This document shows positions 5,783-42,789 of a stretch of 64,000 bases of DNA, piece by piece. Each line of letters opens with the position of its first letter. The stretch's first letter is position 1. The notes beneath the pieces were generated by a model. That model saw nothing but the letters and a program-made list of their open reading frames with translations. It did no database searches and was not told the DNA's origin. Both the position numbers and the translations under genes were made by a program. The stretch comes from Aureliella helgolandensis. GTDB taxonomy: Bacteria > Planctomycetota > Planctomycetia > Pirellulales > Pirellulaceae. The DNA is taken from NCBI RefSeq assembly GCF_007752135.1, contig NZ_CP036298.1:5516859-5580858 (forward strand). The letters run 5' to 3'.

Positions 5783-6002
5783 GAAGAAAATCGGGATTGC
5801 TCAATCCAACGAGCTTCTTCCCGGTACCAAACTTCAGCGGGTCTACAAGGGAGAAACGTTCTCGGTCACGGTGCTGGAAAGTGGATTTGAGTTCCAAGGT
5901 GAACGCTTCAAATCACTGACTGCGGTTGCCAAGGCTGTCACCGGGAAGCACTGGAACGGCTTTCACTTCTTCGGCCTGCGTCAACCAAGGAGTGCCAAAT
6001 GA
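5511..6002 (+). CDS. DUF2924-family protein, the usual partner of large serine recombinases in integrative elements.
   Basis: Motifs RIAWRMQA, LSERARKRAIEIAN and GxxLxRxYKGETxxVTVLESGFEFxGERFKSLTAVAKAVTGxHWNGFxFFGL typify DUF2924. The stop overlaps the recombinase start. Confidence 0.6.
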   Translation: MRYLPRSIAMVSVTVNQLRIKYADVFGEGTNGRNKVWLLKRIAWRMQANEEGDLSERARKRAIEIANDADLRMLPPRRPKLSADSSERTVTKKIGIAQSNELLPGTKLQRVYKGETFSVTVLESGFEFQGERFKSLTAVAKAVTGKHWNGFHFFGLRQPRSAK

Positions 6003-24570: not shown

Positions 24571-24703
24571 AGCTCTAAACCTCCTTTGTCGAGGAAATAC
24601 ACACCCGCTGGCCAATCGCGAAGGTGAGCAGCCTCCGCAACCTTTTTGTGCACTCGCAGCGCCAGAGCAGCCGGCATGTCAAACGGAAAGGAACAAGTGG
24701 ATC

Positions 24704-25398: not shown

Positions 25399-25902
25399 AT
25401 GCACGACTGGGATGAGATTCGAAGAAATCACGGTCCAATGGTCTGGAACGCCATTGGCAGGATTCTTCGGAATTCCGAGGATATCACGGACTGCTACCAA
25501 GATGTTTTCCTTGAGGCCTTTCAACGATCTCTTACGCGTAGCATCAATAACATGCCGGGGCTATTGCGGTGGCTAGCAGTCCATCGCGCTTTGGATTCAT
25601 TGCGAAAGTTGAAAGCTCTGCCGAAGATCGCCGCAAACCGAAATGTTGACGGAATCACATGCGACAGTGCTCGCGATACGCAACGACTAAATGAACTTTT
25701 GGAGACTGTCCGATGTGAGCTTTCTTCGCTTTCTGTGGAGCAGGCGGAATGCTTCTGGCTCTGCTGCGTAGAGGGACTGAAGTATCGTGAAGCAGCCGAA
25801 GTAATGGGGCTTGAGACTCAGCACGTCGGAATGTTAGTTCATCGAGCTCGCAAGCACTTAAGCCAAGCTCTCATCGATTGGCATGATGGTCGCAACGTCT
25901 GA
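25399..25902 (+). CDS. ECF-type RNA polymerase sigma-70 factor.
   Basis: Region 2 (DITDCYQDVFLEAFQ) and region 4 HTH (YREAAEVMGLETQHVGMLVHRARKHL). Confidence 0.8.
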   Translation: MHDWDEIRRNHGPMVWNAIGRILRNSEDITDCYQDVFLEAFQRSLTRSINNMPGLLRWLAVHRALDSLRKLKALPKIAANRNVDGITCDSARDTQRLNELLETVRCELSSLSVEQAECFWLCCVEGLKYREAAEVMGLETQHVGMLVHRARKHLSQALIDWHDGRNV

Positions 25903-29070: not shown

Positions 29071-29459
29071 TTCGTCCAGACTGAGCGGCAATGCGCTAGC
29101 GGCCGGTTCTGGCAATACAACGCCTGAAGAACCGACGGCTAGCGCCTCGTCGCTCAAAAAACTGTTCGACGAAGGGTAGTTGAGAAAGGCTTTCGCCATC
29201 TTAAGCAAAGATGTAATCCCAACTGGCAGTCGAACGAGAATCGCAAAGTAGATCGAAGCACTACGCTTCGTCCGCTTCCCCTATTTCATTTGTTTGTATC
29301 TATGCGAATAGAGACTCGCTTTCATCATCAAGGTTCACAGAAAAGCGACTGACGAAGTGTGACCAGAGCGCCATGACGACGTGCGTCAATTGATAGCTCC
29401 CGCTATCGCGGCTAAAGGGTGGGGATGTACTCCGAGTCGGCAGTCAGTCGTGGACGATT

Positions 29460-29825: not shown

Positions 29826-30701
29826 GGTTTTACATAGCTGTTTGAGAGAGTGGATTTGTACGTGTGCAGGTTCTTCGTCCGACGCTCGATTACTCGGCGC
29901 CGGTTGGCATAATCACGAAGAATCTGAATTGCACACGCATGGTTCACTCTTTGACAGTAATGTGGAAAACGAATGATGGTTTGAAAGCTAGCCAGACGGT
30001 GAGCTAATCGAAGTTCGCAGTGGGAAGATTCAATCCAGCTCCCTAAAAGTACTCGTCGCGATTGGAGCCATCAAAAACGGCCCGATCGCAGACAGCAGTT
30101 CTTGAAGCGTTGTCTGCTGCCACACGGGCATGGATCGTTGCGGCCTAGTTTTTCCTCGAGTAGCTTGTCGCCGTGGACAATCTGCACGCCGCGTTTGACG
30201 TTCGTCTCCGAAGGGTAGCCGCGTCGGCGTTTACTCATCGGTTCGAAAAAAGGAATCTTGAAGGTTGTTGTCGCGAATGATAGAGCTCCTAGTGAACACT
30301 GAGCGGTACGGCGCTAGCCGCCGGTTCTAGTAAGATCAGAAGAATCGAGATCAGAAGAACCGAGGGCTAGCGCCCAATCGCTCACAATAGAAAGAAAATG
30401 ACTCGCCACGACAGTTGCCTATCGCGGCGAGTCGTAACAATGCAAATGAACGAAGTGGTTTGTTCAGATACTTTTGGTGTTGGTTAATGTAATCCGAACA
30501 GGCAGTTCAAATGCCAGAGCCGACGACTGGATTCGCACCAGCATTGATCTGTTTACAAGACAGATGCCTTTCTCAGTCGAGCCACGTCGGCAAGAGCAGT
30601 CTATAGGTGTTGGCCTGTAGACTGAAGTATGAGAGACCTAAAGACGATTCGGGGTTCACGCTCGCATGTAAAGAATTCAACTTATTTGAACCATTGGTCG
30701 C

Positions 30702-31382
30702 TCAGTCTAATTTTGCCACAACCAAATATTTTTCGGTACGCGTGCTCGGTAATGCATTTGTTGCTTGCATCATCCCTGCGTGTGTTACCGTGAACCCGGC
30801 GATCTCTAGCAAGTAGGGCACTGTTGCCAGCGATTGGATGGCAGCCAGTGGCAAACAGTCAGCGAAGTCAGTGGCAAGGCTGGACCAAGCACTCCGACTG
30901 TAAAATCCATCGATGAGTAGCACGGTTCCCTGGGGCTTCAACCAATATCGCCAATTCACCATGGCCGAAAGCGGGTCGTAGAGCCCATTCGCTAATTGCC
31001 GCGAGATAATCACGTCAAAGGAGGCCGGCGGAAAAAGCGACATTTCGTCCGGCGAGTCGCAGAATCCTTGGCAGATGCGCACCGAACTCAACTCTGGCTT
31101 GCTACCCAATTTCTGTAGCATCAAAGTCGAAGGTTCAAGCGCCGTCAGTTCGAGACCGCCAATTCGAATGAGCATGCGGCACATTGCTCCGGTTCCTGCG
31201 CCCGCGTCCAGCACCGACATACCGGTCTCCAGTGCAAACACTTGGGCAATGTCGGCTAGACAGGCAAGTTCATCAACTTCGCCAATTTGCTGCGTCCAGG
31301 CTTCATATTGCTCGACGGCCGCAGCATCGTAGCTGGAAAGATGCTTGGCTCGGAATTCAGATTGAGATAAACGGTAGGTCAT
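30702..31382 (-). CDS. Class I SAM-dependent methyltransferase.
   Basis: Motif I VLDAGAGTGAMCRML; post-I acidic residue; motif II/III-like segments. Confidence 0.7.
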   Translation of the reverse strand: MTYRLSQSEFRAKHLSSYDAAAVEQYEAWTQQIGEVDELACLADIAQVFALETGMSVLDAGAGTGAMCRMLIRIGGLELTALEPSTLMLQKLGSKPELSSVRICQGFCDSPDEMSLFPPASFDVIISRQLANGLYDPLSAMVNWRYWLKPQGTVLLIDGFYSRSAWSSLATDFADCLPLAAIQSLATVPYLLEIAGFTVTHAGMMQATNALPSTRTEKYLVVAKLD

Positions 31383-31450
31383 ATCGTTCGTATTTGGAAA
31401 ACAAAAAGATGGCGTCCGCCGGTTGGGAAATAACCGACAGACGCCTTAGT

Positions 31451-32596
31451 TTACAGCAAGTTCATAACGCGATCGGTCAATCCCTTTTCGCCGAGTACGA
31501 TATTCATCTTGCCCGCCGTTGCGATCTTCTCGAGAACTTCCAGTTCTCGGAGTCGCATCAGCGTTGGGTTGTCGGCCAACAGCTTGGCGGTGTTGGCCTG
31601 GCTACGCATGGCAGCGGTTTCCTCGCGGCGTGCGATCAAGTTGGCTTCGGCCGCCTTCTTGGCTTCCGTTACCTTGTTCATCAGGTCCCTCATGTCGCCT
31701 GGCAGAATCACGTCCTTGATACCTACTGAGCTGACTTCCAGACCCAACACACTCGCCTGCTCGCGCACTTGCTGCTCAAGCTCCTGAGCCACATCGTCCT
31801 TGCCGGTCAAAAAGCTATCGAGTTCACGTCCGCCGATCACCGCTCGCAGCGCCAACTGCACCTCGCGGTACAACGACTGTCGAACATCGCTCGAAGCGCT
31901 CACGGCGCGACGAGCGTCCTTGATCGCGTAGGTTACGATCGCGTTCATGCGGAGCGTCACCTTGTCAAGCGTCATGATCTCCTGACCACTGACGTCAATT
32001 TGTGACTCTCGCATATCGAGCTCAACAACGCGCGAGTCGGCTGCATCCTTCCAGTATGCGTACAGACCCGGTTCGAGCTGAGCTACGAAGCGACCGTCGA
32101 TGAACAGCACACCCACGTGATCTCGTTCGACCTTGCAGATGTCCAGCAATCGAGCAGCTTCCGCGGCACGCACGATCGACTTCAAATCTTTGTGCTCGAA
32201 TCGTACGTCTCGCGAATCGACAATTTCCACTCGCACATCACGAACACCAGTCCAGTACACGTACAGTCCGGCGCCGAGAATTCGAGCGAATCGTCCATCG
32301 ATCCACACGAGCGCTCGCTGGTAGTCCTTCAAATCCAGCACTTCAGCCTTACCGGCCAATGCGCCGGACTTGACGATAACGTCCAGTTGATCGTCAGCCA
32401 GCCATGGATCTCGCTTTGAGACTACGCGAACGCGAATCTTGTTCAGAGGATCAATGATCCAGTGTGTACCAGCGTCGACCAGCCCCTTGAATTCGCCTTC
32501 GCGGAACTTCAGGCCAACTTCGTAGCTGCGAATCACAATTCTCTTTAACATGAAGCCGCCTCCTTTCACGAAAGCGAGTAACAAAATGCCGATCAA
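31451..32596 (-). CDS. SPFH/band-7 (stomatin/prohibitin-like) protein with coiled-coil C-terminus.
   Basis: N-terminal TM then SPFH core. Ala/Glu-rich heptad C-terminus (EAKKAAEANLIARREETAAMRSQANTAKLLA). Confidence 0.7.
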   Translation of the reverse strand: MIGILLLAFVKGGGFMLKRIVIRSYEVGLKFREGEFKGLVDAGTHWIIDPLNKIRVRVVSKRDPWLADDQLDVIVKSGALAGKAEVLDLKDYQRALVWIDGRFARILGAGLYVYWTGVRDVRVEIVDSRDVRFEHKDLKSIVRAAEAARLLDICKVERDHVGVLFIDGRFVAQLEPGLYAYWKDAADSRVVELDMRESQIDVSGQEIMTLDKVTLRMNAIVTYAIKDARRAVSASSDVRQSLYREVQLALRAVIGGRELDSFLTGKDDVAQELEQQVREQASVLGLEVSSVGIKDVILPGDMRDLMNKVTEAKKAAEANLIARREETAAMRSQANTAKLLADNPTLMRLRELEVLEKIATAGKMNIVLGEKGLTDRVMNLL

Positions 32597-32995
32597 TATC
32601 AGCGTAAGGTGTTTGAAGCAGAAAGAGGCCTTGAGGCACCGAATTGTTCGTCAATCACACGCGACTGCTACGGAGGAAGGCTTTGACAGAGCTCTGTCGA
32701 TAAGATTGGATCGAACTCTGGTGACAGACGCGGTAGGAACAATGCCCTACAGCCTCAGCACTTTCATTGCGATCCGCCTCTATCAACGTTGCAATGCTTC
32801 GGCAAACCTACAAGGTGAAGTCATGTGCTGCTGCGGCCAGTTTGTCGTCTACCTTCCGATTCACGCAGCGGCTTTCACCGATTCGTTAATGTTCCAGTCT
32901 ACAACTCACCAACTCGCAGCCGATCGAGCGAAACAATCGTTGCCCGCCAGCTTCTGTGGTGGACGCTTTCGCGCCCGGGTTGGTTTTCAGCCAAC

Positions 32996-33075
32996 TTGGT
33001 GCATCGACGGGAGTCGAACCCGTGACCGTCAGGTTATTAGCCTGATGCTCTACCCGCTGAGCTACTTCAATCGGT
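32996..33075 (-). tRNA. tRNA-like unit, anticodon loop reads AAU. Acceptor stem does not pair canonically (pseudo-tRNA?).
   Basis: T-arm ACGGG-AGTCGAA-CCCGT (RC), anticodon arm TCAGG-TTATTAG-CCTGA, D-arm present; 5' and 3' acceptor halves are non-complementary. Confidence 0.3.
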
Positions 33076-33318
33076 GTTGCTTTTAGAACCCGTTCACGGA
33101 ACACAGTACGCCAACTGCCGAAAGGCAGGGCAGTCTGCGCCGCCGGAACAACATCGACCAAATGCTTACTTACAAGCAGGAATGCAGTGGTTCGAACACT
33201 GTCCATCGGTTTTGGAGGCCGAGTCCGCTCCCAGGCGAACATTCCTGTATTGTGAACGGTTCGGCGCTAGCCGCCGGTATCGAAACCGAAGGCTAACGCC
33301 TATTCGCTCAGTCACAAA

Positions 33319-33984
33319 CTATGTTTCCAATTCAACGTTCCAGTACGCTTCGCTGATAAACTTGTTCCAGCTCTGGATGCGATTCATGCGCTGGGCATAG
33401 ATCGGCTTCCAATTCGGACGGACCGGTTGCTTGCGAAGCTTCATGCGAGCTTCGGCCGGCGTGCGATCTGCCTTGCGAGAATTGCAATCAACGCAAGCTA
33501 GAACGCAGTTGGTCCAGCTTGACTGGCCACCTTGAGCACGAGGAACAACGTGGTCGATCGTCAGCTCTTCGCCACCAGGCTGCTTGCTACAGTACTGGCA
33601 GGTCAGCTTGTCGCGCTTGAACACGTTGCGACGGCTGAACGTTACCGACTGCGTCGGCAATTGGTCGAACTTAGTAAGGGCGATCACTTCAGGCACGCGA
33701 AACTTCTGACGCACTGACTGAATGAACGGTTGGTCGCGATCTGGCACCAACTGGCTCCAATCGCTCCAGTCAAATAACTGGTAGTCCACCGGATCGACTA
33801 CCTTGGCGGAGTCGTTCCACAGCAGGATCAGCGCACGAGCGACCGTGGCCACATTGATCGGCTGCCAGTTGCGGTTTAGTACCAGCGTCGGAAGCTGGAG
33901 CGTCGGGCTCAAGCCCATGAAGTTCGTCTGTCGATCCAGATTTGCAGTGTTCACGTCAATTAGTCCATGTGATTTGAAGTCCAA
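33319..33984 (-). CDS. HNH endonuclease-domain protein.
   Basis: CQYCSKQPGGEELTIDHVVPRAQGG...NCVLACVDCNSRK has the HNH zinc-finger/His-Asn-His pattern. Confidence 0.7.
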   Translation of the reverse strand: MDFKSHGLIDVNTANLDRQTNFMGLSPTLQLPTLVLNRNWQPINVATVARALILLWNDSAKVVDPVDYQLFDWSDWSQLVPDRDQPFIQSVRQKFRVPEVIALTKFDQLPTQSVTFSRRNVFKRDKLTCQYCSKQPGGEELTIDHVVPRAQGGQSSWTNCVLACVDCNSRKADRTPAEARMKLRKQPVRPNWKPIYAQRMNRIQSWNKFISEAYWNVELET

Positions 33985-34097
33985 AGTGTTGAGTAAACTG
34001 TGTAAAAGGGACTCGCGTTAATAGGTGATTGTTCACGAAAATAATGCATGGAAAAACACTCAACGAAGTAATGGTCAGAGGTTAGCCCGTCCGAAAA

Positions 34098-34450
34098 TGA
34101 GCAAGCGGACGGAGCGGGGTTTGAACCCGCTCAATCTTGCGATTGACTTCCATGTACTCCGAGCCGTCAGTTGAGCATATATTGGTTCACTTGACGAAGT
34201 TGTGGACAGAGATCCGGCCCGTATATCAGTACGAGCGGGCCGGGCGAGATTCGAACCTGCTAAACCATGTACTCCGAACCGGCAGTCAAGTGAGTGTATG
34301 TTTTATGATCGACGAAGTGATGTGTCAGAGGGTTTACGGCGCTCTACCACTGAGCTACGGCGCAATGTTTCAAAACAAAGTCGCGCCGGTGGGACTCGAA
34401 CCCACGACATCCGGCTTATAATGCTGTACTCCAACTCGGCAGTCGATCAA
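34098..34450 (-). other. Three tRNA-like fragment units (T-arm plus hairpin, or D-arm half) that cannot be folded into canonical cloverleaves. Each carries the motif TGTACTCCGA-YCGGCAGTC.
   Basis: Good T-arms (GCGGG-GTTTGAA-CCCGC; GTGGG-ACTCGAA-CCCAC) and a perfect 5' half GCGCCGTAGCTCAGTGGTAGAGC, but no matching acceptor partners. Includes a GNRA-capped hairpin TCAATC-GCAA-GATTGA. Confidence 0.5.
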
Positions 34451-34451
34451 G

Positions 34452-34523
34452 TAGCCCGACCAGGAATCGAACCTGGGACTTCTCGTTAGAAGCGAGAAAT
34501 GATGTCCGTTTCACCACCGAGCT
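34452..34523 (-). tRNA. tRNA-Arg (anticodon UCU).
   Basis: Acceptor AGCUCGG/UCGGGCU (two G-U), T-arm CCAGG-UUCGAUU-CCUGG, anticodon loop CUUCUAA, discriminator A. Confidence 0.55.
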
Positions 34524-34696
34524 ATCAACAAGCGGAAGGCAAGGGAGTCGAACCCTCATCTCTAAACGAGAACCGCGTTAGCAGTGCGGCCCAGCAAACC
34601 GTATCTGGCTACCTTCCAAAACAGGCTTGAGACTGGAGACCGGAGGCTGTAGTAAAATCCCTACAGCCTCTCGCCTCAAGCCTCCCGCCTACTAAG

Positions 34697-34767
34697 AGGT
34701 TCGTTCGAGAATCGAACTCGATCTTCGTTCTTACCAAGAACGCGTGCTCCCGGAACACTTACAAACC
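34697..34767 (-). tRNA. tRNA-Thr (anticodon GGU).
   Basis: Acceptor GGUUUGU pairs ACGAACC, D-arm GUGU/GCAC, anticodon loop UUGGUAA, T-loop UUCGAUU. Confidence 0.65.
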
Positions 34768-34850
34768 CCAAAGTAATGGGCACACTCCGCTGTGCCGTGA
34801 CCTACAAAACCAGCGGACGGCAGAACGGAGTCTGCCTGCTACTATGTGAT
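34768..34850. repeat. Copy 1 of an 85-nt structured spacer element containing an imperfect inverted pair of hairpins (GGCACACTCCGCTGTGCC ... GGCAGAACGGAGTCTGCC).
   Basis: About 80% identical to 35612-35697; the two hairpins are reverse complements of each other. Confidence 0.6.
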
Positions 34851-34919
34851 CGCGGATGGAATCGAACCATCGGTCTCCTGCGTGTCATGCAGGCGTCTTA
34901 GCCGCTGGACCACGCGATC
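34847..34919 (-). tRNA. tRNA-Val (anticodon GAC).
   Basis: Perfect acceptor GAUCGCG/CGCGAUC, U8, D-arm, anticodon loop AUGACAC, T-arm GAUGG-UUCGAUU-CCAUC. Confidence 0.65.
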
Positions 34920-34929
34920 GTTTACTCAG

Positions 34930-35004
34930 TAGTCGAGACAGGAATCGAACCTGCAGAATCACCTGGCCCTCGACCAGATCGCTTTACCTGTTTGCGTACT
35001 CGAC
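34930..35004 (-). tRNA. tRNA-like unit with non-canonical anticodon loop (UCGAGGG, would read GAG); possibly pseudo.
   Basis: Acceptor and T-arm pair; C33 instead of U33 in the anticodon loop. Confidence 0.3.
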
Positions 35005-35085
35005 CGTCAGTAAGTGGCGGGTCCAGGAATCGCACCTGGCAGTCCAAGCTTATGAGGCTCGGATGAACACTAGCCCACCCGCGAG

Positions 35086-35153
35086 TTGCAAGCCCCGGAA
35101 TCGAACCAGGCGACCGACCGTATGAAAGTCGACTCAGTACCAACTAGCCTGCA
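35086..35153 (-). tRNA. tRNA-Met-like (anticodon CAU) with shortened D-arm.
   Basis: Acceptor UGCAGGC/GCUUGCA pairs, anticodon loop UUCAUAC, T-loop UUCGAUU; only about 14 nt between U8 and the anticodon stem. Confidence 0.4.
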
Positions 35154-35165
35154 GACTTTACGAAG

Positions 35166-35248
35166 TCACGAAGAGGAGATTCGAACTCCTACGCCTTGAT
35201 GGCACGACGTTCTGAGCGTCGCATGTCTACCAGTTCCATCACTTCGTG
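35166..35248 (-). tRNA. tRNA-Leu (anticodon CAG), class II with long variable arm.
   Basis: Acceptor CACGAAG, D-arm GAUGGAACUGGUAGACAU (Leu-like), anticodon loop CUCAGAA, 14-nt variable hairpin, T-loop UUCGAAU. Confidence 0.65.
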
Positions 35249-35255
35249 TTGTTAG

Positions 35256-35330
35256 TGACTCGGACCGGAATTGAACCGGCGTCGACCAGCTTGAGAGGCT
35301 AGTTGCAAGTACCAAACATCGCACCGAGCC
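35256..35330 (-). tRNA. tRNA-Glu (anticodon CUC).
   Basis: Acceptor and T-arm (UUCAAUU loop) pair; anticodon loop CUCUCAA. Confidence 0.5.
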
Positions 35331-35345
35331 ATATTGTTCGTTCAG

Positions 35346-35426
35346 TGAGCCGGGAAGGAATCGAACCTTCCGCGCCGCGAGGCAACTGTGTTACAGACAG
35401 CCTGGACTACCAAGTCCAACCGACTC
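35346..35426 (-). tRNA. tRNA-Tyr (anticodon GUA), class II.
   Basis: Acceptor GAGUCGG, D-arm GGAC-UUGGUA-GUCC, anticodon loop CUGUAAC, 14-nt variable arm, discriminator A. Confidence 0.65.
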
Positions 35427-35438
35427 GTTTCAACCAAG

Positions 35439-35512
35439 TGACGCAGGCGGGATTCGAACCCGCAATCGCGAAGGTTTAAGCTTCGCCGCTGTACCTGTTC
35501 GCGTACCGCGTC
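35439..35512 (-). tRNA. Class I (5-nt variable region) tRNA with anticodon UAA (Leu-type codon UUA).
   Basis: Acceptor GACGCGG/CUGCGUC (one G-U), anticodon arm CGAAG-CUUAAAC-CUUCG, T-arm GCGGG-UUCGAAU-CCCGC, discriminator A. Confidence 0.55.
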
Positions 35513-35535
35513 AATTAAAAACCTGTCAACTGTAG

Positions 35536-35609
35536 TGGTGAGGGTGGGACTCGAACCCACAAACACTGAGGTTTGAGCTCAGCCGCTATGCCAATTAGCG
35601 CACCGCACC
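35536..35609 (-). tRNA. Class I tRNA with anticodon CAA (Leu-type codon UUG).
   Basis: Acceptor GGUGCGG/CCUCACC (6/7), U8, D-arm CGCU/AGCG, anticodon loop CUCAAAC, 5-nt variable region, T-loop UUCGAGU. Confidence 0.55.
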
Positions 35610-35611
35610 AT

Positions 35612-35697
35612 AAAAAGTAGTAGGCACACTCCGCTGTGCCGCAACTCGTCACACTTGCGAACGGCAGAGCGGAGTCAGCCTGCCACTATTGAGTAGC
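35612..35697. repeat. Copy 2 of the 85-nt structured spacer element (see 34768-34850).
   Basis: Shares GGCACACTCCGCTGTGCCG ... ACGGCAGAGCGGAGTCAGCCTGC with copy 1. Confidence 0.6.
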
Positions 35698-35775
35698 TCG
35701 CCAAGGAATCGAACCTTGTCTAACAGTTTCGAAGACTGTCGTGCGAATCCATCACACTCGCAAGCCGTGTATCTT
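35695..35775 (-). tRNA. tRNA-Arg-like (anticodon UCG); acceptor register uncertain.
   Basis: T-arm CAAGG-UUCGAUU-CCUUG, anticodon arm ACAGU-CUUCGAA-ACUGU. Confidence 0.4.
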
Positions 35776-35794
35776 CATCTCGCATTTGTAAAAG

Positions 35795-35867
35795 TGTCCA
35801 TGTCAGGAATCGAACCTGATCTTCGACCTTCGCAGGGTCGCGTGCGCATCCACTACACTTCACAGAC
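35795..35867 (-). tRNA. tRNA-Arg (anticodon GCG).
   Basis: Acceptor GUCUGUG/CAUGGAC (two G-U), anticodon loop CUGCGAA, T-loop UUCGAUU. Confidence 0.6.
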
Positions 35868-35874
35868 ATATCAG

Positions 35875-35947
35875 TGGTGCGGGTGAGATTCGAACTCACA
35901 GACACTTGTTCCTAAGACAAGCCGCTCAGCCGTTGGCGTACCACACC
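35875..35947 (-). tRNA. Class I tRNA with anticodon UAG (Leu-type codon CUA).
   Basis: Acceptor GGUGUGG/CCGCACC, U8, anticodon arm CUUGU-CUUAGGA-ACAAG, 5-nt variable region, discriminator A. Confidence 0.55.
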
Positions 35948-35956
35948 GAATTGAAG

Positions 35957-36028
35957 AGGCGCTACCGAGATTCGAACTCGTTGTCAGCGTGTTTTGCAGA
36001 CACACCCCGCACCAAGCGGATTAGCGCC
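35957..36028 (-). tRNA. tRNA-Cys (anticodon GCA).
   Basis: Perfect acceptor GGCGCUA/UAGCGCC, discriminator U (as in Cys), anticodon loop CUGCAAA. Confidence 0.6.
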
Positions 36029-36036
36029 ACTTTCAG

Positions 36037-36109
36037 TAGTCCTGGACGGACTCGAACCGTCGATCGTCTGTTTGTAAAACAGAAGCCTTCGCCGCTAGGC
36101 CACAGGACT
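36037..36109 (-). tRNA. tRNA-Val (anticodon UAC).
   Basis: Perfect acceptor AGUCCUG/CAGGACU, U8, D-arm GCCU/AGGC, anticodon loop UUUACAA. Confidence 0.65.
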
Positions 36110-36126
36110 ATGTATTTCAAATAAGG

Positions 36127-36210
36127 CGGAAGACCAGGGACTCGAACCCCGAAGCGGTATCAGCGCCAGCCGTTTTCAAGACGGTTTCCTCATCCAGCCG
36201 GATGTCTTCC
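36127..36210 (-). tRNA. tRNA-Ser (anticodon UGA), class II.
   Basis: Perfect acceptor GGAAGAC/GUCUUCC, discriminator G, anticodon loop CUUGAAA, long variable arm. Confidence 0.6.
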
Positions 36211-36222
36211 AATAATGCAAAG

Positions 36223-36295
36223 CGCCCTTAACGAGGATCGAACTCGCCGCGAACTGATCGACAATCAGCCTCCACCACCAGATGGACTCAAGGGC
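36223..36295 (-). tRNA. tRNA-Asp (anticodon GUC).
   Basis: Acceptor GCCCUUG/UAAGGGC, discriminator G, D-arm UGGA/UCCA, anticodon loop UUGUCGA. Confidence 0.6.
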
Positions 36296-36309
36296 ATACA
36301 GTTAAACAG

Positions 36310-36383
36310 GGTGACCGATCGGAATTGAACCGACATGGACTTGGTTCACAGCCAAGTTCCTGAACCAATACAGGACGACCACC
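36310..36383 (-). tRNA. tRNA-His (anticodon GUG) with encoded G-1.
   Basis: Anticodon loop CUGUGAA; extra 5' G opposite discriminator C, the His-specific G-1:C73 pair. Confidence 0.65.
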
Positions 36384-36398
36384 ATCTTCAAAGTGCAG

Positions 36399-36472
36399 CA
36401 GCGGGGACAGGAATCGAACCTGCGACCTTCTGGTTCAGAGCCAGATGCGACTACCAACAGTTGCTACCCCGG
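36399..36472 (-). tRNA. tRNA-Gln-like (anticodon CUG); 5' acceptor strand not confidently placed.
   Basis: T-arm and anticodon arm UCUGG-CUCUGAA-CCAGA clear; discriminator G. Confidence 0.4.
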
Positions 36473-36493
36473 AATGTGAATTAAAATATAGAG

Positions 36494-36565
36494 CACGGGT
36501 GATAGGAATCGAACCTACATACCACTGCTTCAAAGGCAGCTGACTTGCCGTTAGTCGACACCCGA
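36494..36565 (-). tRNA. tRNA-Gln (anticodon UUG).
   Basis: Acceptor pairs (CACCCGA partner), U8, anticodon loop CUUUGAA, discriminator G. Confidence 0.55.
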
Positions 36566-36741
36566 ATGTTGATTTGGAGCTAAGAGTGCCATGTCGGAGT
36601 CGAACCGACCTGACCGGATTGGAAGTCTTTTTCACGTTGCTTCAGACTGGTTAAGGTTGGGGAGAGAAGCGTTCCCCAAAATCAAACTTCCCAGCGACGC
36701 GTAAAAGCCTTTGCCGCTCGGTCAATGGCACATTCATGAAG

Positions 36742-36816
36742 CTCCGGAGGCAGGAATCGAACCTGCGGCTAAGCGATTAACAGTCGCCCTCCCGTACCAG
36801 CACAGGACCCACCGGA
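36742..36816 (-). tRNA. tRNA-Asn (anticodon GUU).
   Basis: T-arm GCAGG-UUCGAUU-CCUGC, anticodon loop CUGUUAA, discriminator G, acceptor 6/7. Confidence 0.6.
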
Positions 36817-36832
36817 ATGTTTTTCACAAGAG

Positions 36833-36907
36833 TCAGGATGGTCGGATTTGAACCGACGGTCTCGTGCTCCCGAAGCACGCGGAGTAGCCAGACTTTCCCA
36901 CACCCTG
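36833..36907 (-). tRNA. tRNA-Pro (anticodon CGG).
   Basis: Acceptor CAGGGUG/CAUCCUG, U8, anticodon loop UUCGGGA, T-loop UUCAAAU. Confidence 0.6.
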
Positions 36908-36918
36908 AGTTACATTAG

Positions 36919-36992
36919 TAGCGGGAGACGGACTCGAACCATCGACCTCCAGGGTATGAACCTGGCGAGCTGACCAACTGCTCCATCCCGCG
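36919..36992 (-). tRNA. Initiator-type tRNA-fMet (anticodon CAU).
   Basis: 5' CGCGGGA with unpaired C1 opposite U72 (the initiator hallmark), anticodon arm CCAGG-UUCAUAC-CCUGG, D-arm GAGC/GCUC, discriminator A. Confidence 0.55.
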
Positions 36993-36993
36993 A

Positions 36994-37064
36994 AGCGCCT
37001 AGTGAGAATTGAACTCACGTTTTCTGCATGGCAAGCAGATGGGTTACCACTACACCATAGGCGC
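36994..37064 (-). tRNA. tRNA-Gly (anticodon GCC).
   Basis: Perfect acceptor GCGCCUA/UAGGCGC, discriminator U, anticodon loop UUGCCAU. Confidence 0.6.
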
Positions 37065-37133
37065 GATTATTTCGGATCTACCAAATTGTCAAAGATCAGT
37101 TTGTGTTCACGGAATTGTCAATTCAATGAACAG

Positions 37134-37204
37134 AGCACCGAGTGAGAATCGAACTCACGCCGCCGCTTTACGAAAGCGGTGTCATTCCACTAGACTATCA
37201 GTGC
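37134..37204 (-). tRNA. tRNA-Thr (anticodon CGU).
   Basis: Acceptor GCACUGA/UCGGUGC (one G-U), anticodon arm CCGCU-UUCGUAA-AGCGG. Confidence 0.55.
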
Positions 37205-37226
37205 TTGTGTGTTTCAGTTTTCGCAG

Positions 37227-37298
37227 TGGGACCGGTGGGAATTGAACCCACATCGTTCGGTTTAAGAGACCGATGCATTACCTTGTCTGCCACAATCC
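37227..37298 (-). tRNA. tRNA-Lys (anticodon CUU).
   Basis: Acceptor GGGAUUG/CGGUCCC (two G-U), U8, anticodon loop CUCUUAA. Confidence 0.55.
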
Positions 37299-37310
37299 CG
37301 TTTGTTTCAG

Positions 37311-37384
37311 TCGGCGTGGAGGGAATTGAACCCTCGACCTTCGTCTTATAAGGACGGTGCTCGGACCATCGAGCTGCACGCCGC
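37311..37384 (-). tRNA. tRNA-like with anticodon UAU (Ile/AUA-type). The anticodon stem has one A-C mismatch.
   Basis: Perfect acceptor CGGCGUG/CACGCCG, D-arm GCUC/GAGC, anticodon loop CUUAUAA. Confidence 0.4.
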
Positions 37385-37395
37385 TTGCTTAAGAG

Positions 37396-37467
37396 TGAGG
37401 CCGGAGAGATTCGAACTCTCACCTGGCGGATTAAAAGTCCGCAGTGCTGCCGTTACACCACAACCTC
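37396..37467 (-). tRNA. tRNA-Lys (anticodon UUU).
   Basis: Anticodon arm GCGGA-CUUUUAA-UCCGC, T-loop UUCGAAU, acceptor with G-U pairs. Confidence 0.5.
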
Positions 37468-37541
37468 GGGTTGGCTATGGCTATGCGTTTCAAACGAATT
37501 GGCAATTGCATCACGATCTCCTTAGTTGTTTGTCGTTTCAG

Positions 37542-37613
37542 TGGTAGCCCTGAGAATCGAACTCAGCGCCACTCGGTTATCAGCCGGGTATGAGCAACCA
37601 GCTCTCGACTACC
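37542..37613 (-). tRNA. tRNA-Ile (anticodon GAU).
   Basis: Anticodon loop CUGAUAA, T-arm CUGAG-UUCGAUU-CUCAG, acceptor 6/7. Confidence 0.5.
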
Positions 37614-37624
37614 ATTTCATGAAG

Positions 37625-37696
37625 TCGGGTGTGTCGGAATCGAACCGCTCTCGATCGTCCCAAACGATCTGTGCTAGCCATTACACTTCACGCCCG
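37625..37696 (-). tRNA. tRNA-Pro-like (anticodon UGG) with weak T-stem (3 bp).
   Basis: Anticodon arm GAUCG-UUUGGGA-CGAUC; acceptor 6/7. Confidence 0.4.
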
Positions 37697-37712
37697 ATAG
37701 TTGTTATGTCAG

Positions 37713-37785
37713 TGGACCTGCAGGGAGTTGAACCCTGAAGCCTTGAGTGCAAGTCAAAGCGCCGACCCGTCGGCAAGCCCATCCT
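37713..37785 (-). tRNA. tRNA-Ala-like (anticodon UGC); acceptor poorly paired and lacks G3-U70.
   Basis: T-arm CAGGG-UUCAACU-CCCUG, anticodon loop CUUGCAC. Confidence 0.35.
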
Positions 37786-37796
37786 TAGTTGCAAAG

Positions 37797-37869
37797 CGAC
37801 TCGTGTGGGATTCGAACCCAACCTGACTGGCTTGAAAGACCAGTGACCTCACCAGAAGTCGAACGAGCC
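37797..37869 (-). tRNA. tRNA-Glu (anticodon UUC).
   Basis: Acceptor GGCUCGU/ACGAGUC, discriminator G, anticodon loop CUUUCAA. Confidence 0.5.
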
Positions 37870-37971
37870 ATGTTGTTTTCTCAGTTCTGTCAGCGCGTAC
37901 CTTCCACGCAGTTGTTCATCAGGAGTTTTTGCCTAAGCCGTTTGCGACTGCTTCCTATGCATCACAGTGAG

Positions 37972-38043
37972 TGGACTGGGAGGTGCTCGAACCCTCCTCT
38001 GCGGTTCTTCAGACCGCCGCTATACCGTCTCAGCTACCAGTCC
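37972..38043 (-). tRNA. tRNA-Phe (anticodon GAA); last unit of the array.
   Basis: Perfect acceptor GGACUGG/CCAGUCC, anticodon arm GCGGU-CUGAAGA-ACCGC, T-loop UUCGAGC. Confidence 0.5.
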
Positions 38044-38440: not shown

Positions 38441-40154
38441 TCCCCGTAACGAACCCTCTTCATAACCATTCTCTGTTTCGGAAATGACGCAAACACAATG
38501 AGCACAAGGGGTTAGCGATTCCGAGTCCCGTTCGATCCCCTGGAGCGGACGCAACCGTTTACTGAAAACCGAACACAGAAGTGGGGGGTAGAGAAGTTCT
38601 CACAATGGAGCTTGAGCATGGGCTGACGGCGTCTCTGTCGGACGATGGAGCAGGCTAGTGACGGGCAGCCTACTCACGGAGTGCATGCTGACACCAGCCC
38701 CGCTCGAACGAACTGCTTCTGCTTGGCGCCAACGATGTTGACGATTCTCACGTCCGTCACAGCACTACTCTGGCGCCACCCTCGTCGCCCCGTTGCAGTC
38801 GCATTGCGAACTCCAATGGCCCACGTATGCTCTTCGGCTTAGCGGGGTACAAAAACCTCGCCACTTCGATTATTCCAAGATTTGCAAGGGACCAGCAGAC
38901 CAAGATGGCAGCCATCATTCATCCGCTTCTCGCACTCCTGGCCTCCCTCTCTCGACAGGAACTTGCTCGACAAGTTACCTATCTTAAAACTGAAAACCGA
39001 ATCCTGAGAAGTAAATTACCTCACAGGATTAGCCTCAGCAATCAGGAGCGTCGTACATTGGTCAAACACGGAAGGCAGTTAGGCGCTCGGATTAAGGAGT
39101 TGATCTCAATCGTCAGCTATTCCTCGTTTCGTCGATGGGTCCGTGAGCTGGAAGATGCTCCAAGTAAGCGGCCAGCGAGGAAAGACGGCAAGTGCGGACG
39201 CCCTCGTGTGGAGGAAAGTCTTAGTGATGCGATTCTTCGAGTTCGGAAGGAGACAGGCTGGGGTACACGAAGATTGTCCAGGCGATGCGGAGACTTGGGC
39301 ATAATGTCTCTCGACAGACTGTCAAGAATGTGATTGTCCAAGCAGGCCTAGGGCCGCAACCCCATGATTATCCCGATACTTGGACTGACTTTCTAAAACG
39401 ACACGCCGCCACGCTGTGGCAATGCGACTTTGCCTGCAAGAAGAAATGGACAGTGAAGGGACTTGTGGACGTCTACTTCCTCGTATTTATTCATATAGGA
39501 ACACGCCGCGTTTGGATTTCTCCTTGCACCGAGCATCCCACGGGCGAATGGAGTGCGCAGCAGGCGCGCAACTTCCTGATGCACATCCAGGACGAAGACC
39601 TTCCATGCACCCACCTGTGCCGTGACAACGACACGAAATACGTAACGGCCTTTGATTCAGTGTTTGAAGCAACCGGCTGCAAAGTCAAACGAACGACTCC
39701 CATGTCCCCCAACCTTCAGGCCCACGTCGAACGTGTAATTCAAACCATCAAGCATGAAGTGCTAAACGCCTTTTGTATTGTGAGCGACAGTCATTTGAAC
39801 CATCTGCTTCGTGTAACTCAAGATTGGTACAACTTCCGACGTGGTCACAGTGCGCGCGATCACTTGCCACCCATCCGCGACAGCGACACACCAGCGACCA
39901 TCGACTTGACGAAGCACAAGCTCATTTGTGTCGAGGAGCTCGGCGGGCATCTGAAATCCTATCGCACTGCTGCGTAGCGGAGGAAGGTGCAGCCCACACT
40001 GCTTTGTTCTATTGGATGTGAGCGAGACAGTGCTCAAGCAAAATTCTGAGCTTCTCCCTGGCTGCTCATAGCACCGCGGTCCGATACCACCAACTCTCGT
40101 CCAAGTGCAAAAATTGACGCTTGAGGCCTGTGGTGAGATTCGTGTACCGCGCGG
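38441..40154 (+). mobile_element. IS481-family insertion sequence, copy A. The transposase is frameshifted.
   Basis: About 97% identical to 44470-46188. The transposase reading frame (38905-39977) is split into ORFs 38827-39333 and 39285-39977 by loss of one G in the run GGCTGGGG(G)TACACG near 39262. Confidence 0.7.
38905..39977 (+). pseudogene. IS481-family DDE transposase (HTH plus rve integrase core), inactivated by a -1 frameshift.
   Basis: See copy B (44940-46013) for the intact 357-aa protein. Here two overlapping ORFs encode the N- and C-terminal halves. Confidence 0.7.
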
Positions 40155-41284: not shown

Positions 41285-41399
41285 TCGATTACGGTCTCTT
41301 CAGTCGGGTAACGGCGGCCATAACCCAGTCGCCGAAGTTGATTTTGATGTAACTAAACACAAGACCGGCGACTTGGGGTGAGTAGAGCGAGCTCTCTCT

Positions 41400-42100
41400 T
41401 TCAAGTTTAACATAAAGCTTGGACTTGATCGATTGAGCGTCGCCCCCTCCCAGAACCGGACGTGCGCCGTTAACGCATCCGGCTCCCCACGTTGGCCTTC
41501 CCGAAACGACAAGACGTTTCGATCTGCTATAAGGAATCAGTTGCATTGCTATCTGGCTCTGTGTCCAGACAATGCTGACGCCTTATCGCCGCCATCCGCT
41601 TGGCCGCCTTCCCTCCACCAGAGTTACCCGGCTTCAACGGTACTATGCAGCCTTCCGACTTCCTTTGCTCGTTTCCAAGCCTCTCCTTTTCAGATTGGTG
41701 ATGAATACTTGAACGAGCACAACTGCACGTGCAAGAAGCAAAGGATCTCACTGGTTGCCTTGAAAACATAATGTGTAACGCGACTGGGCCTTCGACCCCG
41801 GGTCTCTGAATATCGCTTGCCAAAACGCGATAGTCAGTATTGCCTTCCAGTATGAACAAACCTTGGGCAGGAGCCAACAGTCACCAAATTTCGGAGCTCA
41901 ATCTCGTTCAGGGCGGGACGGCCAGTCCCTACCTTTCATCCTCGCTAACTTTCTTGACTACACATCAACCGACGACTTCGGCACAGTGTCTTATACCTCG
42001 GTGCAAGCCTAGATACTGAGCCTGTGGCTAACAGCTGCTCAGTCGGGAGTTACACTCGCTAGTCATTCAAACATCTCCAGTTCGATTCGTTCATGCGATG
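41400..42100 (-). mobile_element. Degenerate, ORF-less group II intron derivative with internal deletion: retains the 5' domain I end, the RT N-terminal stub, and domains V/VI.
   Basis: Domain V GAGCCGGATGCGTTAACGGCGCACGTCCGGTTCT (41450-41490, minus strand). The 5' region is about 80% identical to the 5' region of the intact intron at 57580-57822. ORF 41527-41877 matches only the first roughly 110 aa of the RT. Confidence 0.55.
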
Positions 42101-42108
42101 GTTCGCTG

Positions 42109-42789
42109 TCATGTATCGCCAGCTGAGACGGGAGATTCTGGTTGCTGTATAGGCACCCACAGTACAAGCGAACTCAAGTATGGGAACGTATACGGAAGCA
42201 ATTCGATCATGAACGGCAGGCGATGACTATGGGCATCTTCCAACCGGATATCAAGCAGCTCATGCGCTTCACAATAGCGGGCAACAAGCTTCATGTAGCG
42301 ACGCAGTAGCAGAACCGACGGAAAGGCGTTTTTGAATTGGCACCACTCAAGCAGATCACGGTCCCGTTTGGAACTGTTACAGGATTTGCATGCCCAGACG
42401 AGATTGTCGGAGTAGTCCTCACCGCCCTTTATCCTCGGAATCAAATGATCGATGCTTAAAGAGGTTGTTGCTCCACAATAACAGCACGCTTGGGGGTAGT
42501 TGAGCTTGACTTTTTCATCGTCATAAAGCGTGCGCATCTGCATCGTGCTTGAGGTGAGCCCCTTGAAGAGCTTCGCGCGGATCATGTGATGCGTACGCGC
42601 ATATTTGATTGCACCTGCGTCGAGCGCAGCATGTGCACGAGCGAGGTTTGCATACGCCCACGCGATGTGTTGCCTTACGGTGTCGATCACTGGTGTTGGC
42701 ATAAGAAGTACGGTTCGGCTGATAGCGAACGAATAAGGTAAACGCGTCGAGGGGCTTGAGTTGGAAGTGCAAAGTGAATGACGTACCAC
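42109..42789 (-). CDS. HNH endonuclease-domain protein.
   Basis: CCYCGATTSLSIDHLIPRIKGGEDYSDNLVWACKSCNSSKRD HNH motif. Confidence 0.7.
   Translation of the reverse strand: MVRHSLCTSNSSPSTRLPYSFAISRTVLLMPTPVIDTVRQHIAWAYANLARAHAALDAGAIKYARTHHMIRAKLFKGLTSSTMQMRTLYDDEKVKLNYPQACCYCGATTSLSIDHLIPRIKGGEDYSDNLVWACKSCNSSKRDRDLLEWCQFKNAFPSVLLLRRYMKLVARYCEAHELLDIRLEDAHSHRLPFMIELLPYTFPYLSSLVLWVPIQQPESPVSAGDT

What the first reader, a model, noticed from the sequence alone, without database searches (positions are those of the whole stretch)
35439..35947. Three class I (short variable arm) tRNAs carrying leucine-type anticodons UAA, CAA and UAG
Bacterial tRNA-Leu are class II with a long variable arm; the canonical class II tRNA-Leu(CAG) is also present at 35166-35248. 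Units at 35439-35512, 35536-35609 and 35875-35947 fold with good acceptor, D, anticodon and T arms but only 5-nt variable regions and discriminator A. They could be non-Leu identity tRNAs that read Leu codons (recoding), degenerate copies, or unusual array tRNAs.
Basis: seen in the sequence. Interest (0 to 1): 0.7.

Follow-up and report, generated by a model that had tools for sequence, protein, structure and literature searches.

The report
Leucine tRNAs lacking the long arm
The three flagged units are real, conserved leucine-type tRNAs without the usual long extra arm, and this form turns out to be common in phage genomes and mobile bacterial tRNA gene arrays, so they are ordinary members of a little-discussed class and not a sign of genetic-code change.

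Summary
Three tRNAs lie on the minus strand at 35439-35512 (anticodon UAA), 35536-35609 (CAA) and 35875-35947 (UAG). Each has a 5-nt variable region and discriminator A73. A fourth unit, Leu(GAG) at 34930-35005, was missed, and Leu(CAG) at 35166-35248 is class II.

All five sit in a 37-tRNA array on a Pirellulaceae (Planctomycetota) chromosome. About 25 related Pirellulales arrays carry the same set in the same order. Across 78 distinct orthologues, 97.9% of stem positions pair and 18 of 20 pairs show compensatory changes, so these are not decaying copies.

The tRNA bodies are leucine-type: a 3-bp D stem, a 10-11-nt D loop with A14, A15 and G18G19, plus U48 and A73. That signature occurs in 5 of 5 Leu and 0 of 32 other tRNAs in the window.

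Published work shows that bacterial LeuRS charges tRNALeu without the long arm. SerRS does require it, and TyrRS does as far as I recall. Consistent with this, tRNA-Ser and tRNA-Tyr in the arrays and in phages keep their arm. In a phage sample, 17 of 61 tRNA-Leu were short, against 1 of 95 Ser plus Tyr.

My reading is that these are arm-less leucine tRNAs of a mobile tRNA array. Recoding is not supported. No charging or expression data exist.

The parts
35439..35512 (-). tRNA-Leu(UAA), class I-like: variable region CGAUU (5 nt), A73, D loop GAACAGGUACA, no encoded CCA
   Evidence: ARAGORN; RF00005 55.8 bits; Leu-type D arm; orthologues in 15 array loci
35536..35609 (-). tRNA-Leu(CAA), class I-like: variable region UGUUU, A73, D loop UAAUUGGCAUA
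   Evidence: Second-best hit (53.7 bits) of a covariance model built only from housekeeping class II tRNALeu. Orthologues listed.
35875..35947 (-). tRNA-Leu(UAG), class I-like: variable region UGUCU, A73, 10-nt D loop CAACGGCUGA (lacks A20a)
   Evidence: 26 short orthologues in related arrays (a 27th UAG gene there, L065, is class II)
34930..35005 (-).
   Evidence: RF00005 42.7 bits; C33 present in 18 of 19 orthologues
35166..35248 (-). Class II tRNA-Leu(CAG) with a 13-nt variable arm. Its D loop GAACUGGUAGA is 9/11 identical to that of the short Leu(UAA).
   Evidence: 71.7 bits with the housekeeping-Leu model R1
30517..38043 (-). tRNA array of 37 same-strand tRNA genes covering all 20 amino acids. 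A terminator-like hairpin lies just beyond the last gene (30433-30400).
   Evidence: Synteny with Pirellulales arrays L007, L017, L021, L046, L047 and others.
33319..33984 (-). HNH endonuclease gene embedded in the array, used as the handle to find related arrays
   Evidence: Pfam HNH. 292 relatives in genome contigs, best 94% identity in Pirellulaceae MAGs.

Best explanation
The three units, and a fourth Leu(GAG), are functional leucine tRNAs that have lost the long variable arm. They belong to a long, horizontally spread tRNA array (an 'L-array' or 'tRNA array unit') in a Pirellulaceae chromosome.

They keep the elements that bacterial LeuRS is known to read: discriminator A73, U8-A14, the A15-U48 Levitt pair, G18G19 at the elbow, and the 3-bp D stem with its large D loop. 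The host LeuRS should therefore charge them with leucine, and they should decode UUA/UUG, UUG, and CUA (plus other CUN codons) in the standard way.

The arm can be lost in tRNALeu because LeuRS does not need it. It is retained in the array's tRNASer and tRNATyr because SerRS (per the cited review) and bacterial TyrRS (from memory) do need it.

Shown here: the structure, its conservation, the Leu-type body, and the wide distribution of this form. Inferred: charging by LeuRS, expression as part of an operon, and the role as supernumerary or back-up decoders.
For: 1. **Cloverleaf with a 5-nt variable region** in ARAGORN and Rfam.
2. **Selection on the fold.** In 78 distinct orthologues, 97.9% of stem cells pair and 18 of 20 pairs have double changes. 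The covariation score is 0.655 against 0.233 in shuffles (0 of 500 reach it). Slid controls pair in only 31-45% of cells.
3. **Invariant or near-invariant positions:** U8, A14, A73, G18G19, U48.
4. **Leu-specific signature** (Leu-type D arm plus A73):
   - window: 5/5 Leu against 0/32 others;
   - Pirellulales arrays: 58/75 short Leu, 15/16 long Leu, 10/695 others;
   - independent phage sample: 34/42 long Leu, 13/18 short Leu, 9/959 others.
5. **Arm loss is Leu-specific.** In the phage sample, 17/61 Leu are short against 1/95 Ser plus Tyr (p = 3e-7). In the arrays, all 69 distinct Ser and 17 of 19 distinct Tyr are 81 nt or longer.
6. **Published identity rules.**
   - E. coli LeuRS needs A73, A15-U48, G18G19 and A20a, but not the arm or the anticodon, and arm-less minimal tRNALeu remains active (PMC9976931).
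   - The A. aeolicus arm-deletion variant mainly lost affinity, which I read as still being charged (PMC2377443).
7. **No rival identity.** Pair 3:70 is never G:U. Leu codons have the standard meaning in EF-Tu.
8. **The same kind of gene is annotated as tRNA-Leu elsewhere:** in 325 T5-like phage records, in Gordonia and Streptomyces phages, and noted in a mycobacterial tRNA cluster (PMC6582537).
Against: - There are no aminoacylation or expression data for these genes.
- A covariance model built from six housekeeping class II tRNALeu did not separate the units cleanly. It ranked them 2nd, 3rd, 6th and 8th of 37, with Lys and Met tRNAs interleaved.
- An anticodon-masked HMM isotype classifier trained on phage tRNAs was only 51% accurate. 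It put Leu first for CAA, second for UAA and UAG, and not in the top three for GAG.
- For M. tuberculosis LeuRS, a contact between Arg921 and the arm is proposed to be critical (PMC3561953). In A. aeolicus, arm deletion lowers affinity. Charging could therefore be inefficient or host-dependent.
- Leu(UAG) lacks A20a and has a shorter D loop. Leu(GAG) has the rare C33.
Confidence: 0.8

Rival explanations
1. They are expressed and structured, but their main role is not decoding. They could be decoys or spare substrates that absorb or escape tRNA-directed toxins and nucleases, or partners of the neighbouring Ro60/Y RNA system, with poor or no aminoacylation.
For: tRNA-targeting defences and phage counter-tRNAs are well documented (PMC10264068, PMC11555353, PMC11464382). 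A Ro60 gene and a YrlA-like RNA lie in or next to the array. Ro60 recurs near 24 of 80 related loci. Arm deletion lowers LeuRS affinity in A. aeolicus.
Against: The anticodon (A35 invariant), the 7-nt loop, A73 and the full LeuRS identity core are conserved. This is what a decoding tRNA needs and more than a decoy would need. The set of four covers complementary Leu codons.
Confidence: 0.08
2. They are pseudogenes or decaying copies of class II tRNALeu in a silent array.
For: L-arrays were reported as poorly transcribed in several species (PMC8421152). Variable-region length drifts from 4 to 10 nt among orthologues. A tRNA fragment and a disrupted copy exist nearby.
Against: Stem pairing is 97.9% with compensatory changes in 18 of 20 pairs across 78 distinct sequences. 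Core positions are invariant. Synteny is kept across many genomes.
Confidence: 0.04
3. They are tRNAs of another amino-acid identity carrying Leu anticodons, so that Leu codons are recoded or ambiguously read.
For: The short variable region is atypical for bacterial tRNALeu. The housekeeping-Leu model and the HMM classifier were not decisive.
Against: The Leu-type D arm, U48 and A73 are shared with class II tRNALeu and are nearly absent from other isotypes. There is no G3:U70 and no long arm with G73 for SerRS. UUG, CUC and CUA sit at conserved Leu positions of EF-Tu. Most other synthetases read the anticodon and would not accept UAA, CAA or UAG (established knowledge, PMC9976931).
Confidence: 0.03

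Closest known systems
Short-variable-loop tRNALeu(UAG) of the horizontally acquired tRNA gene cluster in Mycobacterium mucogenicum and M. phocaicum (Behra et al. 2019, PMC6582537)
   Same: A cluster-encoded tRNALeu with a short variable loop, next to normal class II housekeeping isoacceptors. The cluster also carries tRNAIle(UAU), tRNAArg(UCG) and an HNH endonuclease gene, as the window array does.
   Different: Different phylum (Actinomycetota against Planctomycetota). That case was mentioned in one sentence for one isoacceptor. Here four isoacceptors are short and are conserved across about 25 arrays.
Phage-encoded 74-77-nt tRNA-Leu genes, such as T5-like Demerecviridae tRNA-Leu(UAA), Gordonia phage Boopy Leu(UAG/UAA/CAA) and Streptomyces phage Tomas Leu(UAG)
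   Same: Same architecture: a 4-5-nt variable region, A73, and a D loop with A14, A15 and G18G19 on a 3- or 4-bp D stem. Sequence identity to the window genes is 76-82%. They are annotated as tRNA-Leu in hundreds of records.
   Different: These are in virus genomes, and some encode CCA. The window array shows no phage structural genes in the ORFs examined.
[quoted passage not shown] 2021, PMC8421152; 'tRNA array units', Morgado and Vicente 2018, PMC5966550)
   Same: Dozens of same-strand tRNA genes covering all amino acids. HNH endonuclease genes are common inside them. They spread horizontally, and Planctomycetes are listed among the phyla that have them.
   Different: Those papers do not discuss the variable arm of the array's tRNALeu. 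Induction under translational stress is shown only for Anabaena.
Engineered arm-less or minimal E. coli and A. aeolicus tRNALeu (Larkin et al. 2002 as summarised in PMC9976931; Yao et al. 2008, PMC2377443)
   Same: tRNALeu bodies without the long arm that bacterial LeuRS still appears to charge, dependent on A73 and the D/T-loop tertiary core.
   Different: These are laboratory constructs. The natural genes here have a regular 5-nt class I variable loop with U48.
Animal mitochondrial tRNALeu(UUR) and tRNALeu(CUN)
   Same: Natural class I tRNALeu whose identity rests on A73 and A14 without a long arm (PMC9976931).
   Different: Those are organellar, often with degenerate D and T loops and a dedicated mitochondrial LeuRS. 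The window tRNAs have canonical G18G19 and a T-loop UUCGA elbow, and presumably use the host's bacterial LeuRS.

Membership tests
Canonical bacterial class II tRNALeu | Leucine anticodon (NAG or YAA) in a 7-nt loop | tested here: met
   UAA, CAA and UAG, plus GAG, with A35 invariant in 78 orthologues. The GAG member has C33 in place of U33.
Canonical bacterial class II tRNALeu | Discriminator A73 | tested here: met
   A73 in all four window genes and invariant in alignment A1
Canonical bacterial class II tRNALeu | Leu-type D arm (3-bp stem; 10-11-nt loop with A14, A15, G18G19, A20a) and the A15-U48 pair | tested here: met
   U48 is at least 90% conserved. Leu(UAG) lacks A20a.
Canonical bacterial class II tRNALeu | Long variable arm (stem-loop of more than 10 nt) | tested here: not met
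   The variable region is 5 nt (7 nt in GAG) in every fold. These units are therefore not filed as class II.
Arm-less (class I-like) tRNALeu of phages and mobile tRNA arrays | Variable region of about 4-5 nt combined with a Leu anticodon, a Leu-type D arm and A73 | tested here: met
   The same combination is seen in 129 of 131 pattern hits in IMG/VR and in T5-like, Gordonia and Streptomyces phages.
Arm-less (class I-like) tRNALeu of phages and mobile tRNA arrays | Encoded in a phage or a horizontally spread tRNA array, not as an isolated housekeeping gene | tested here: met
   37-gene array with an embedded HNH gene, flanked by recombinases, IS elements and group II introns
Arm-less (class I-like) tRNALeu of phages and mobile tRNA arrays | Aminoacylated with leucine | not testable with these tools
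   Inferred from identity elements and the published LeuRS rules only
L-array / tRNA array unit | At least 20 densely packed same-strand tRNA genes covering most amino acids | tested here: met
   37 genes in 7.5 kb covering all 20 amino acids
L-array / tRNA array unit | Supernumerary to a housekeeping tRNA set | tested here: inconclusive
   Only 64 kb is visible. The array lacks Gly(UCC), so other tRNA genes must exist (inference). A class II Leu(UAG) with encoded CCA lies beside a related array in L065.
Identity-switched or recoding tRNAs (for example Candida tRNASer(CAG), nematode nev-tRNAs) | Body carries the identity set of a different amino acid | tested here: not met
   No G3:U70, no long arm with G73, and a Leu-type D arm
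Identity-switched or recoding tRNAs (for example Candida tRNASer(CAG), nematode nev-tRNAs) | The codons concerned no longer align with Leu in conserved proteins | tested here: not met
   UUG (5), CUC (6) and CUA (2) fall at positions that are Leu in a solved EF-Tu. This rests on one gene only.

The most novel reading that the evidence does not exclude
Loss of the long arm is adaptive, not neutral. Mobile tRNA sets in phages and arrays would carry arm-less tRNALeu because these stay chargeable by LeuRS while being poor substrates for toxins or nucleases that recognise class II tRNAs through the arm or variable region. Examples of such enzymes are Schlafen-type RNases (human SLFN11 targets type II tRNAs), MenT3, which I recall depending on the tRNASer long arm, and VapC52, which cuts in the variable or anticodon loop. 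On this reading the Pirellulales module of tRNA array, HNH, Ro60 and Y RNA is a self-contained back-up translation kit.
Probability: 0.15. Interest if true: 0.7.

Novelty: new member of a known kind. Interest (0 to 1): 0.38.

Why it matters
Textbooks state that tRNALeu is class II everywhere except animal mitochondria. These genes, and the survey they prompted, show that arm-less tRNALeu is a regular feature of phage and mobile-array tRNA sets. It accounts for roughly a quarter of tRNA-Leu genes in one phage sample, while tRNASer and tRNATyr keep their arm.

That pattern is a natural experiment agreeing with the biochemical finding that bacterial LeuRS ignores the arm.

It has practical consequences. 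Annotation pipelines and isotype models should not flag such genes as suspicious. They also offer compact natural scaffolds for tRNA engineering. If arm loss protects against arm-directed nucleases, it would add a new mode of tRNA-based defence evasion.

For this window specifically, the result is reassuring and not surprising: there is no recoding.

Tried and rejected
- **Megablast of the array** against the phage and plasmid collections gave no match. The first guess, that the window is a phage, was dropped once the HNH protein placed it in Pirellulaceae chromosomes and no phage structural proteins appeared.
- **Covariance model R1**, built from six housekeeping class II tRNALeu. It was supportive for CAA and UAA, but Lys and Met tRNAs scored as high as GAG and UAG. 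It is not a clean isotype test.
- **Anticodon-masked per-isotype HMMs** trained on about 1,900 phage tRNAs. Only 19 of 37 window tRNAs were assigned correctly, so the method is too weak to decide. I relied on the explicit D-arm/A73/U48 signature instead.
- **Sigma-70 promoter scan.** It found fewer sites than in shuffles and is uninformative for a planctomycete.
- **Nearest-neighbour analysis of short against long tRNALeu.** 39 of 234 short genes have a long gene as nearest neighbour. That hints at repeated loss, but tRNAs are too short for a firm phylogeny.
- **Literature searches** for an explicit description of arm-less phage or array tRNALeu found one passing sentence. Subscription journals and the older T5 literature were not searchable.
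- **tRNAscan-SE isotype models** were not available.

Full report
**1. What is there**

ARAGORN finds 37 tRNA genes between 30517 and 38043, all on the minus strand. Rfam's general tRNA model confirms most of them.

- Leu(UAA) at 35439-35512, 55.8 bits;
- Leu(CAA) at 35536-35609, 52.6 bits;
- Leu(UAG) at 35875-35947, 53.8 bits.

Their cloverleaves have these parts:
- a 7-bp acceptor stem and a 3-bp D stem closing a 10-11-nt loop;
- a 5-bp anticodon stem with a 7-nt loop;
- a 5-nt variable region (CGAUU, UGUUU, UGUCU);
- a 5-bp T stem with a UUCGA(A/G)U loop;
- discriminator A73.

CCA is not encoded. ViennaRNA folds show no hidden long arm. The class II Leu(CAG) at 35166-35248 is confirmed, with a 13-nt arm.

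It has a 7-nt variable region and an anticodon loop UCGAGGG, that is, C33.

**2. Where the window comes from**

The array has no near match among deposited phages or plasmids. The surrounding ORFs encode:
- two serine recombinases and IS-type integrases;
- two group II introns, one with a reverse transcriptase;
- a Ro60/TROVE protein, an EF-Tu, an ECF sigma factor, an SPFH protein and a methyltransferase;
- an HNH endonuclease inside the array.

The HNH protein has 292 relatives in a one-genome-per-species collection. The best matches, 94-79% identical, are in Pirellulaceae and Pirellula genomes.

The window is therefore a planctomycete chromosomal region carrying a long tRNA array. This kind of element has been described as an 'L-array' (PMC8421152) or a 'tRNA array unit', in which HNH genes are the most common embedded ORF (PMC5966550).

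**3. Conservation**

ARAGORN on the 80 related loci finds about 25 arrays with the same gene order (Phe-Glu-Ala-Pro-Ile-Lys-Ile-Lys-Thr-Gly and so on) and the same Leu set:

| Isoacceptor | Length (nt) | Genes found |
|---|---|---|
| Leu(UAG), short | 73-76 | 26 (plus one class II, L065) |
| Leu(CAA), short | 74-80 | 21 (plus one class II, L056) |
| Leu(UAA), short | 74-77 | 15 |
| Leu(GAG), short | 75-82 | 19 |
| Leu(CAG), class II | 83-86 | 14 |

I aligned the 78 distinct short sequences (A1) and counted the cloverleaf pairs.
- 97.9% of cells form standard pairs. The figure is 76.8% in column shuffles and 31-45% when partners are slid by 1-3 columns.
- 18 of 20 pairs show changes on both sides.
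- The covariation score is 0.655 against 0.233 in shuffles, and 0 of 500 shuffles reach it.

The class I-like fold is therefore under purifying selection, and these are not decaying copies.

**4. Which identity**

In A1, the positions U8, A14, A35 and A73 are invariant. G18, G19, the A before the 3' D-stem strand, G45 and U48 are at least 90% conserved.

This matches the published bacterial leucine identity set: A73, U8-A14, A15-U48, G18G19, A20a and the D/T-loop core. The anticodon and the long arm are explicitly dispensable, and arm-less minimal tRNALeu remain active (PMC9976931). For the A. aeolicus arm-deletion variant, the paper reports mainly an affinity decrease, which I read as still being charged (PMC2377443).

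I turned the D-arm architecture into an explicit test: U8, a 3-bp stem, a loop of the form N-A-A-N(1-3)-G-G-N-N-N-A, plus A73.

| Data set | Short Leu | Long (class II) Leu | All other tRNAs |
|---|---|---|---|
| Window | 4/4 | 1/1 | 0/32 |
| Pirellulales arrays | 58/75 | 15/16 | 10/695 |
| Independent phage sample | 13/18 | 34/42 | 9/959 |

For the phage sample, p = 3e-47 for long Leu and 4e-20 for short Leu against the other tRNAs. Of the ten non-Leu matches in the arrays, nine are Val(GAC) genes that fit the loose pattern, and one is a disrupted Leu(GAG) copy.

The D loop of the array's own class II Leu(CAG), GAACUGGUAGA, differs at only 2 of 11 positions from that of the short Leu(UAA), GAACAGGUACA. 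The short genes are thus tRNALeu bodies minus the arm.

Other identities are unlikely.
- Pair 3:70 is C-G or U-A in all 78 sequences and never G:U.
- There is no long arm for SerRS or bacterial TyrRS.
- The remaining synthetases largely depend on anticodons that these tRNAs do not have.
- In the window's EF-Tu gene, UUG, CUC and CUA fall at positions that are Leu in a solved EF-Tu, so the local code is standard.

Two more generic isotype tests were less decisive.
- A covariance model built from five E. coli isoacceptors and one planctomycete class II tRNALeu ranked the short genes 2nd, 3rd, 6th and 8th of 37.
- Anticodon-masked HMMs trained on phage tRNAs were only 51% accurate overall. They placed Leu first or second for three of the four.

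**5. How general this is**

A distant BLAST of the region hit annotated tRNA-Leu genes of 74-77 nt in Gordonia, Streptomyces and T5-like phages. Their cloverleaves are of the same type. The T5-type 77-nt tRNA-Leu(UAA) is present at 95% identity or more in 325 phage records.

Of the 131 matching tRNAs, 129 carry Leu anticodons and are 71-78 nt long.

To avoid that selection bias, I sampled phage contigs through an unrelated anchor, a tRNA-Asp pattern. Among the 1,070 tRNAs found:
- 17 of 61 tRNA-Leu are 80 nt or shorter, all with A73, and 16 of 17 have U8 and the A14-A15...G18G19 D-loop core;
- only 1 of 57 tRNA-Ser and 0 of 38 tRNA-Tyr are that short (p = 3e-7).

The same holds in the planctomycete arrays, where all 69 distinct Ser and 17 of 19 distinct Tyr are 81 nt or longer. 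Loss of the arm is therefore specific to tRNALeu. LeuRS is the only one of the three class II tRNA synthetases shown in the cited work not to need the arm. That bacterial TyrRS needs it I state from memory.

The sample is approximate. The loci are partial, the scan was truncated, and the classes were set by length.

In the literature I could search, the phenomenon is mentioned once, in passing, for a mycobacterial tRNA cluster (PMC6582537). Papers on arrays and on phage tRNAs do not discuss it.

**6. Mechanism and caveats**

The most likely mechanism has three steps:
1. The array is transcribed as an operon. A strong terminator-like hairpin follows its last gene.
2. The short tRNALeu are processed, CCA-tailed and leucylated by the host LeuRS through A73 and the tertiary core.
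3. They decode Leu codons normally, as supernumerary tRNAs.

The array alone cannot decode GGA or GGG, because it has no Gly(UCC). Other tRNA genes must therefore exist in the genome (inference).

What such arrays are for is known only from Anabaena, where the array is induced under translational stress (PMC8421152).

Three caveats apply.
- Charging and expression are inferred, not shown.
- An arm contact is proposed to matter for M. tuberculosis LeuRS (PMC3561953), and arm deletion lowers affinity in A. aeolicus, so these tRNAs may be weaker substrates.
- Whether arm loss is neutral erosion or an adaptation, for example escape from arm-directed nucleases, is open. Variable-region lengths of 4-10 nt among orthologues, and short genes whose nearest relatives are long ones, show that the trait is labile.

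**7. Verdict**

The recoding and pseudogene readings are not supported. The units are new members, from a new phylum, of an existing but barely described class: arm-less tRNALeu of phages and mobile tRNA arrays.

Noticed in passing
34335-34413 (-) and 27385-29208 (-): A YrlA-like (bacterial Y RNA) tRNA-like module lies inside the array. It scores 42.2 bits, below the Rfam gathering score of 69, with E = 4.6e-8 in a 511-nt search. A Ro60/TROVE+vWA gene lies 1.3 kb beyond the array. Ro60 homologues (about 80% identity) occur within 10 kb of the HNH gene in 24 of 80 related Pirellulales loci. Streptomyces phage Tomas also has a Ro-like gene beside its tRNAs.
   Followed up: partly
34930-35005 (-): The short-arm tRNA-Leu(GAG) has C33 in place of the near-universal U33 (loop UCGAGGG). 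C33 is present in 18 of 19 orthologues in related arrays, so it is a conserved oddity and not an error.
   Followed up: partly
34770-34845 and 35614-35689: Two 76-nt spacer repeats (79% identical) lie between tRNA genes. On the minus strand each folds into a long hairpin (-37.6 and -40.8 kcal/mol, z about -5). An 18-nt core motif of the repeat also matches once in L012. Function unknown; possibly a processing site or a small mobile palindrome.
   Followed up: partly
35014-35083 (-) and 35085-35153 (-): Two very short tRNA-Met(CAU) calls of 70 and 69 nt have weak or truncated D arms, and one has a C1xC72 mismatch. Rfam's tRNA model does not find them at E < 1. Similar 67-71-nt Met(CAU) genes sit at the same array position in related genomes.
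   Followed up: partly
33006-33065 (-): A tRNA-like fragment scores 51.5 bits and matches only model positions 7-64. It has intact D, anticodon (apparent anticodon AAU) and T arms and a 3' CCA, but no matching 5' acceptor strand. It may be a pseudogene or an integration remnant.
   Followed up: partly
30517-38043 (-): The array's anticodon set is atypical for bacteria. It has Ile(UAU), Arg(UCG) and Arg(GCG), with no Arg(ACG) and no Gly(UCC). This is the same peculiarity reported for a mycobacterial tRNA cluster. It might reduce dependence on A34-to-inosine editing, and perhaps on lysidine formation, although the array still has three CAU genes.
   Followed up: no
23389-24615 (-) and 25399-25902 (+): A full-length EF-Tu gene (536 bits to solved EF-Tu structures) and an ECF-type sigma factor lie about 6 kb from the array, among mobile-element genes. 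I could not tell whether this EF-Tu is the housekeeping copy or an island-borne paralogue. It is not a conserved neighbour within the 10-kb flanks of related loci.
   Followed up: partly
57533-57787 (-) with ORF 55924-57606; 41377-42052 (-) with HNH ORF 42109-42789: Two group II introns (Rfam 126 and 87 bits). One has a reverse-transcriptase ORF. There are also two serine recombinase genes (5999-7558, 9952-11502) and IS-type integrases (39285-39977, 44940-46013). The region looks like a hotspot for mobile elements.
   Followed up: no
L065:11192-11275 (-): A canonical class II tRNA-Leu(UAG) with encoded CCA lies on the opposite strand, about 600 nt from the HNH gene of a related array that has no short Leu(UAG) in the captured stretch. 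It may be a housekeeping gene, possibly the integration site of the island.
   Followed up: no
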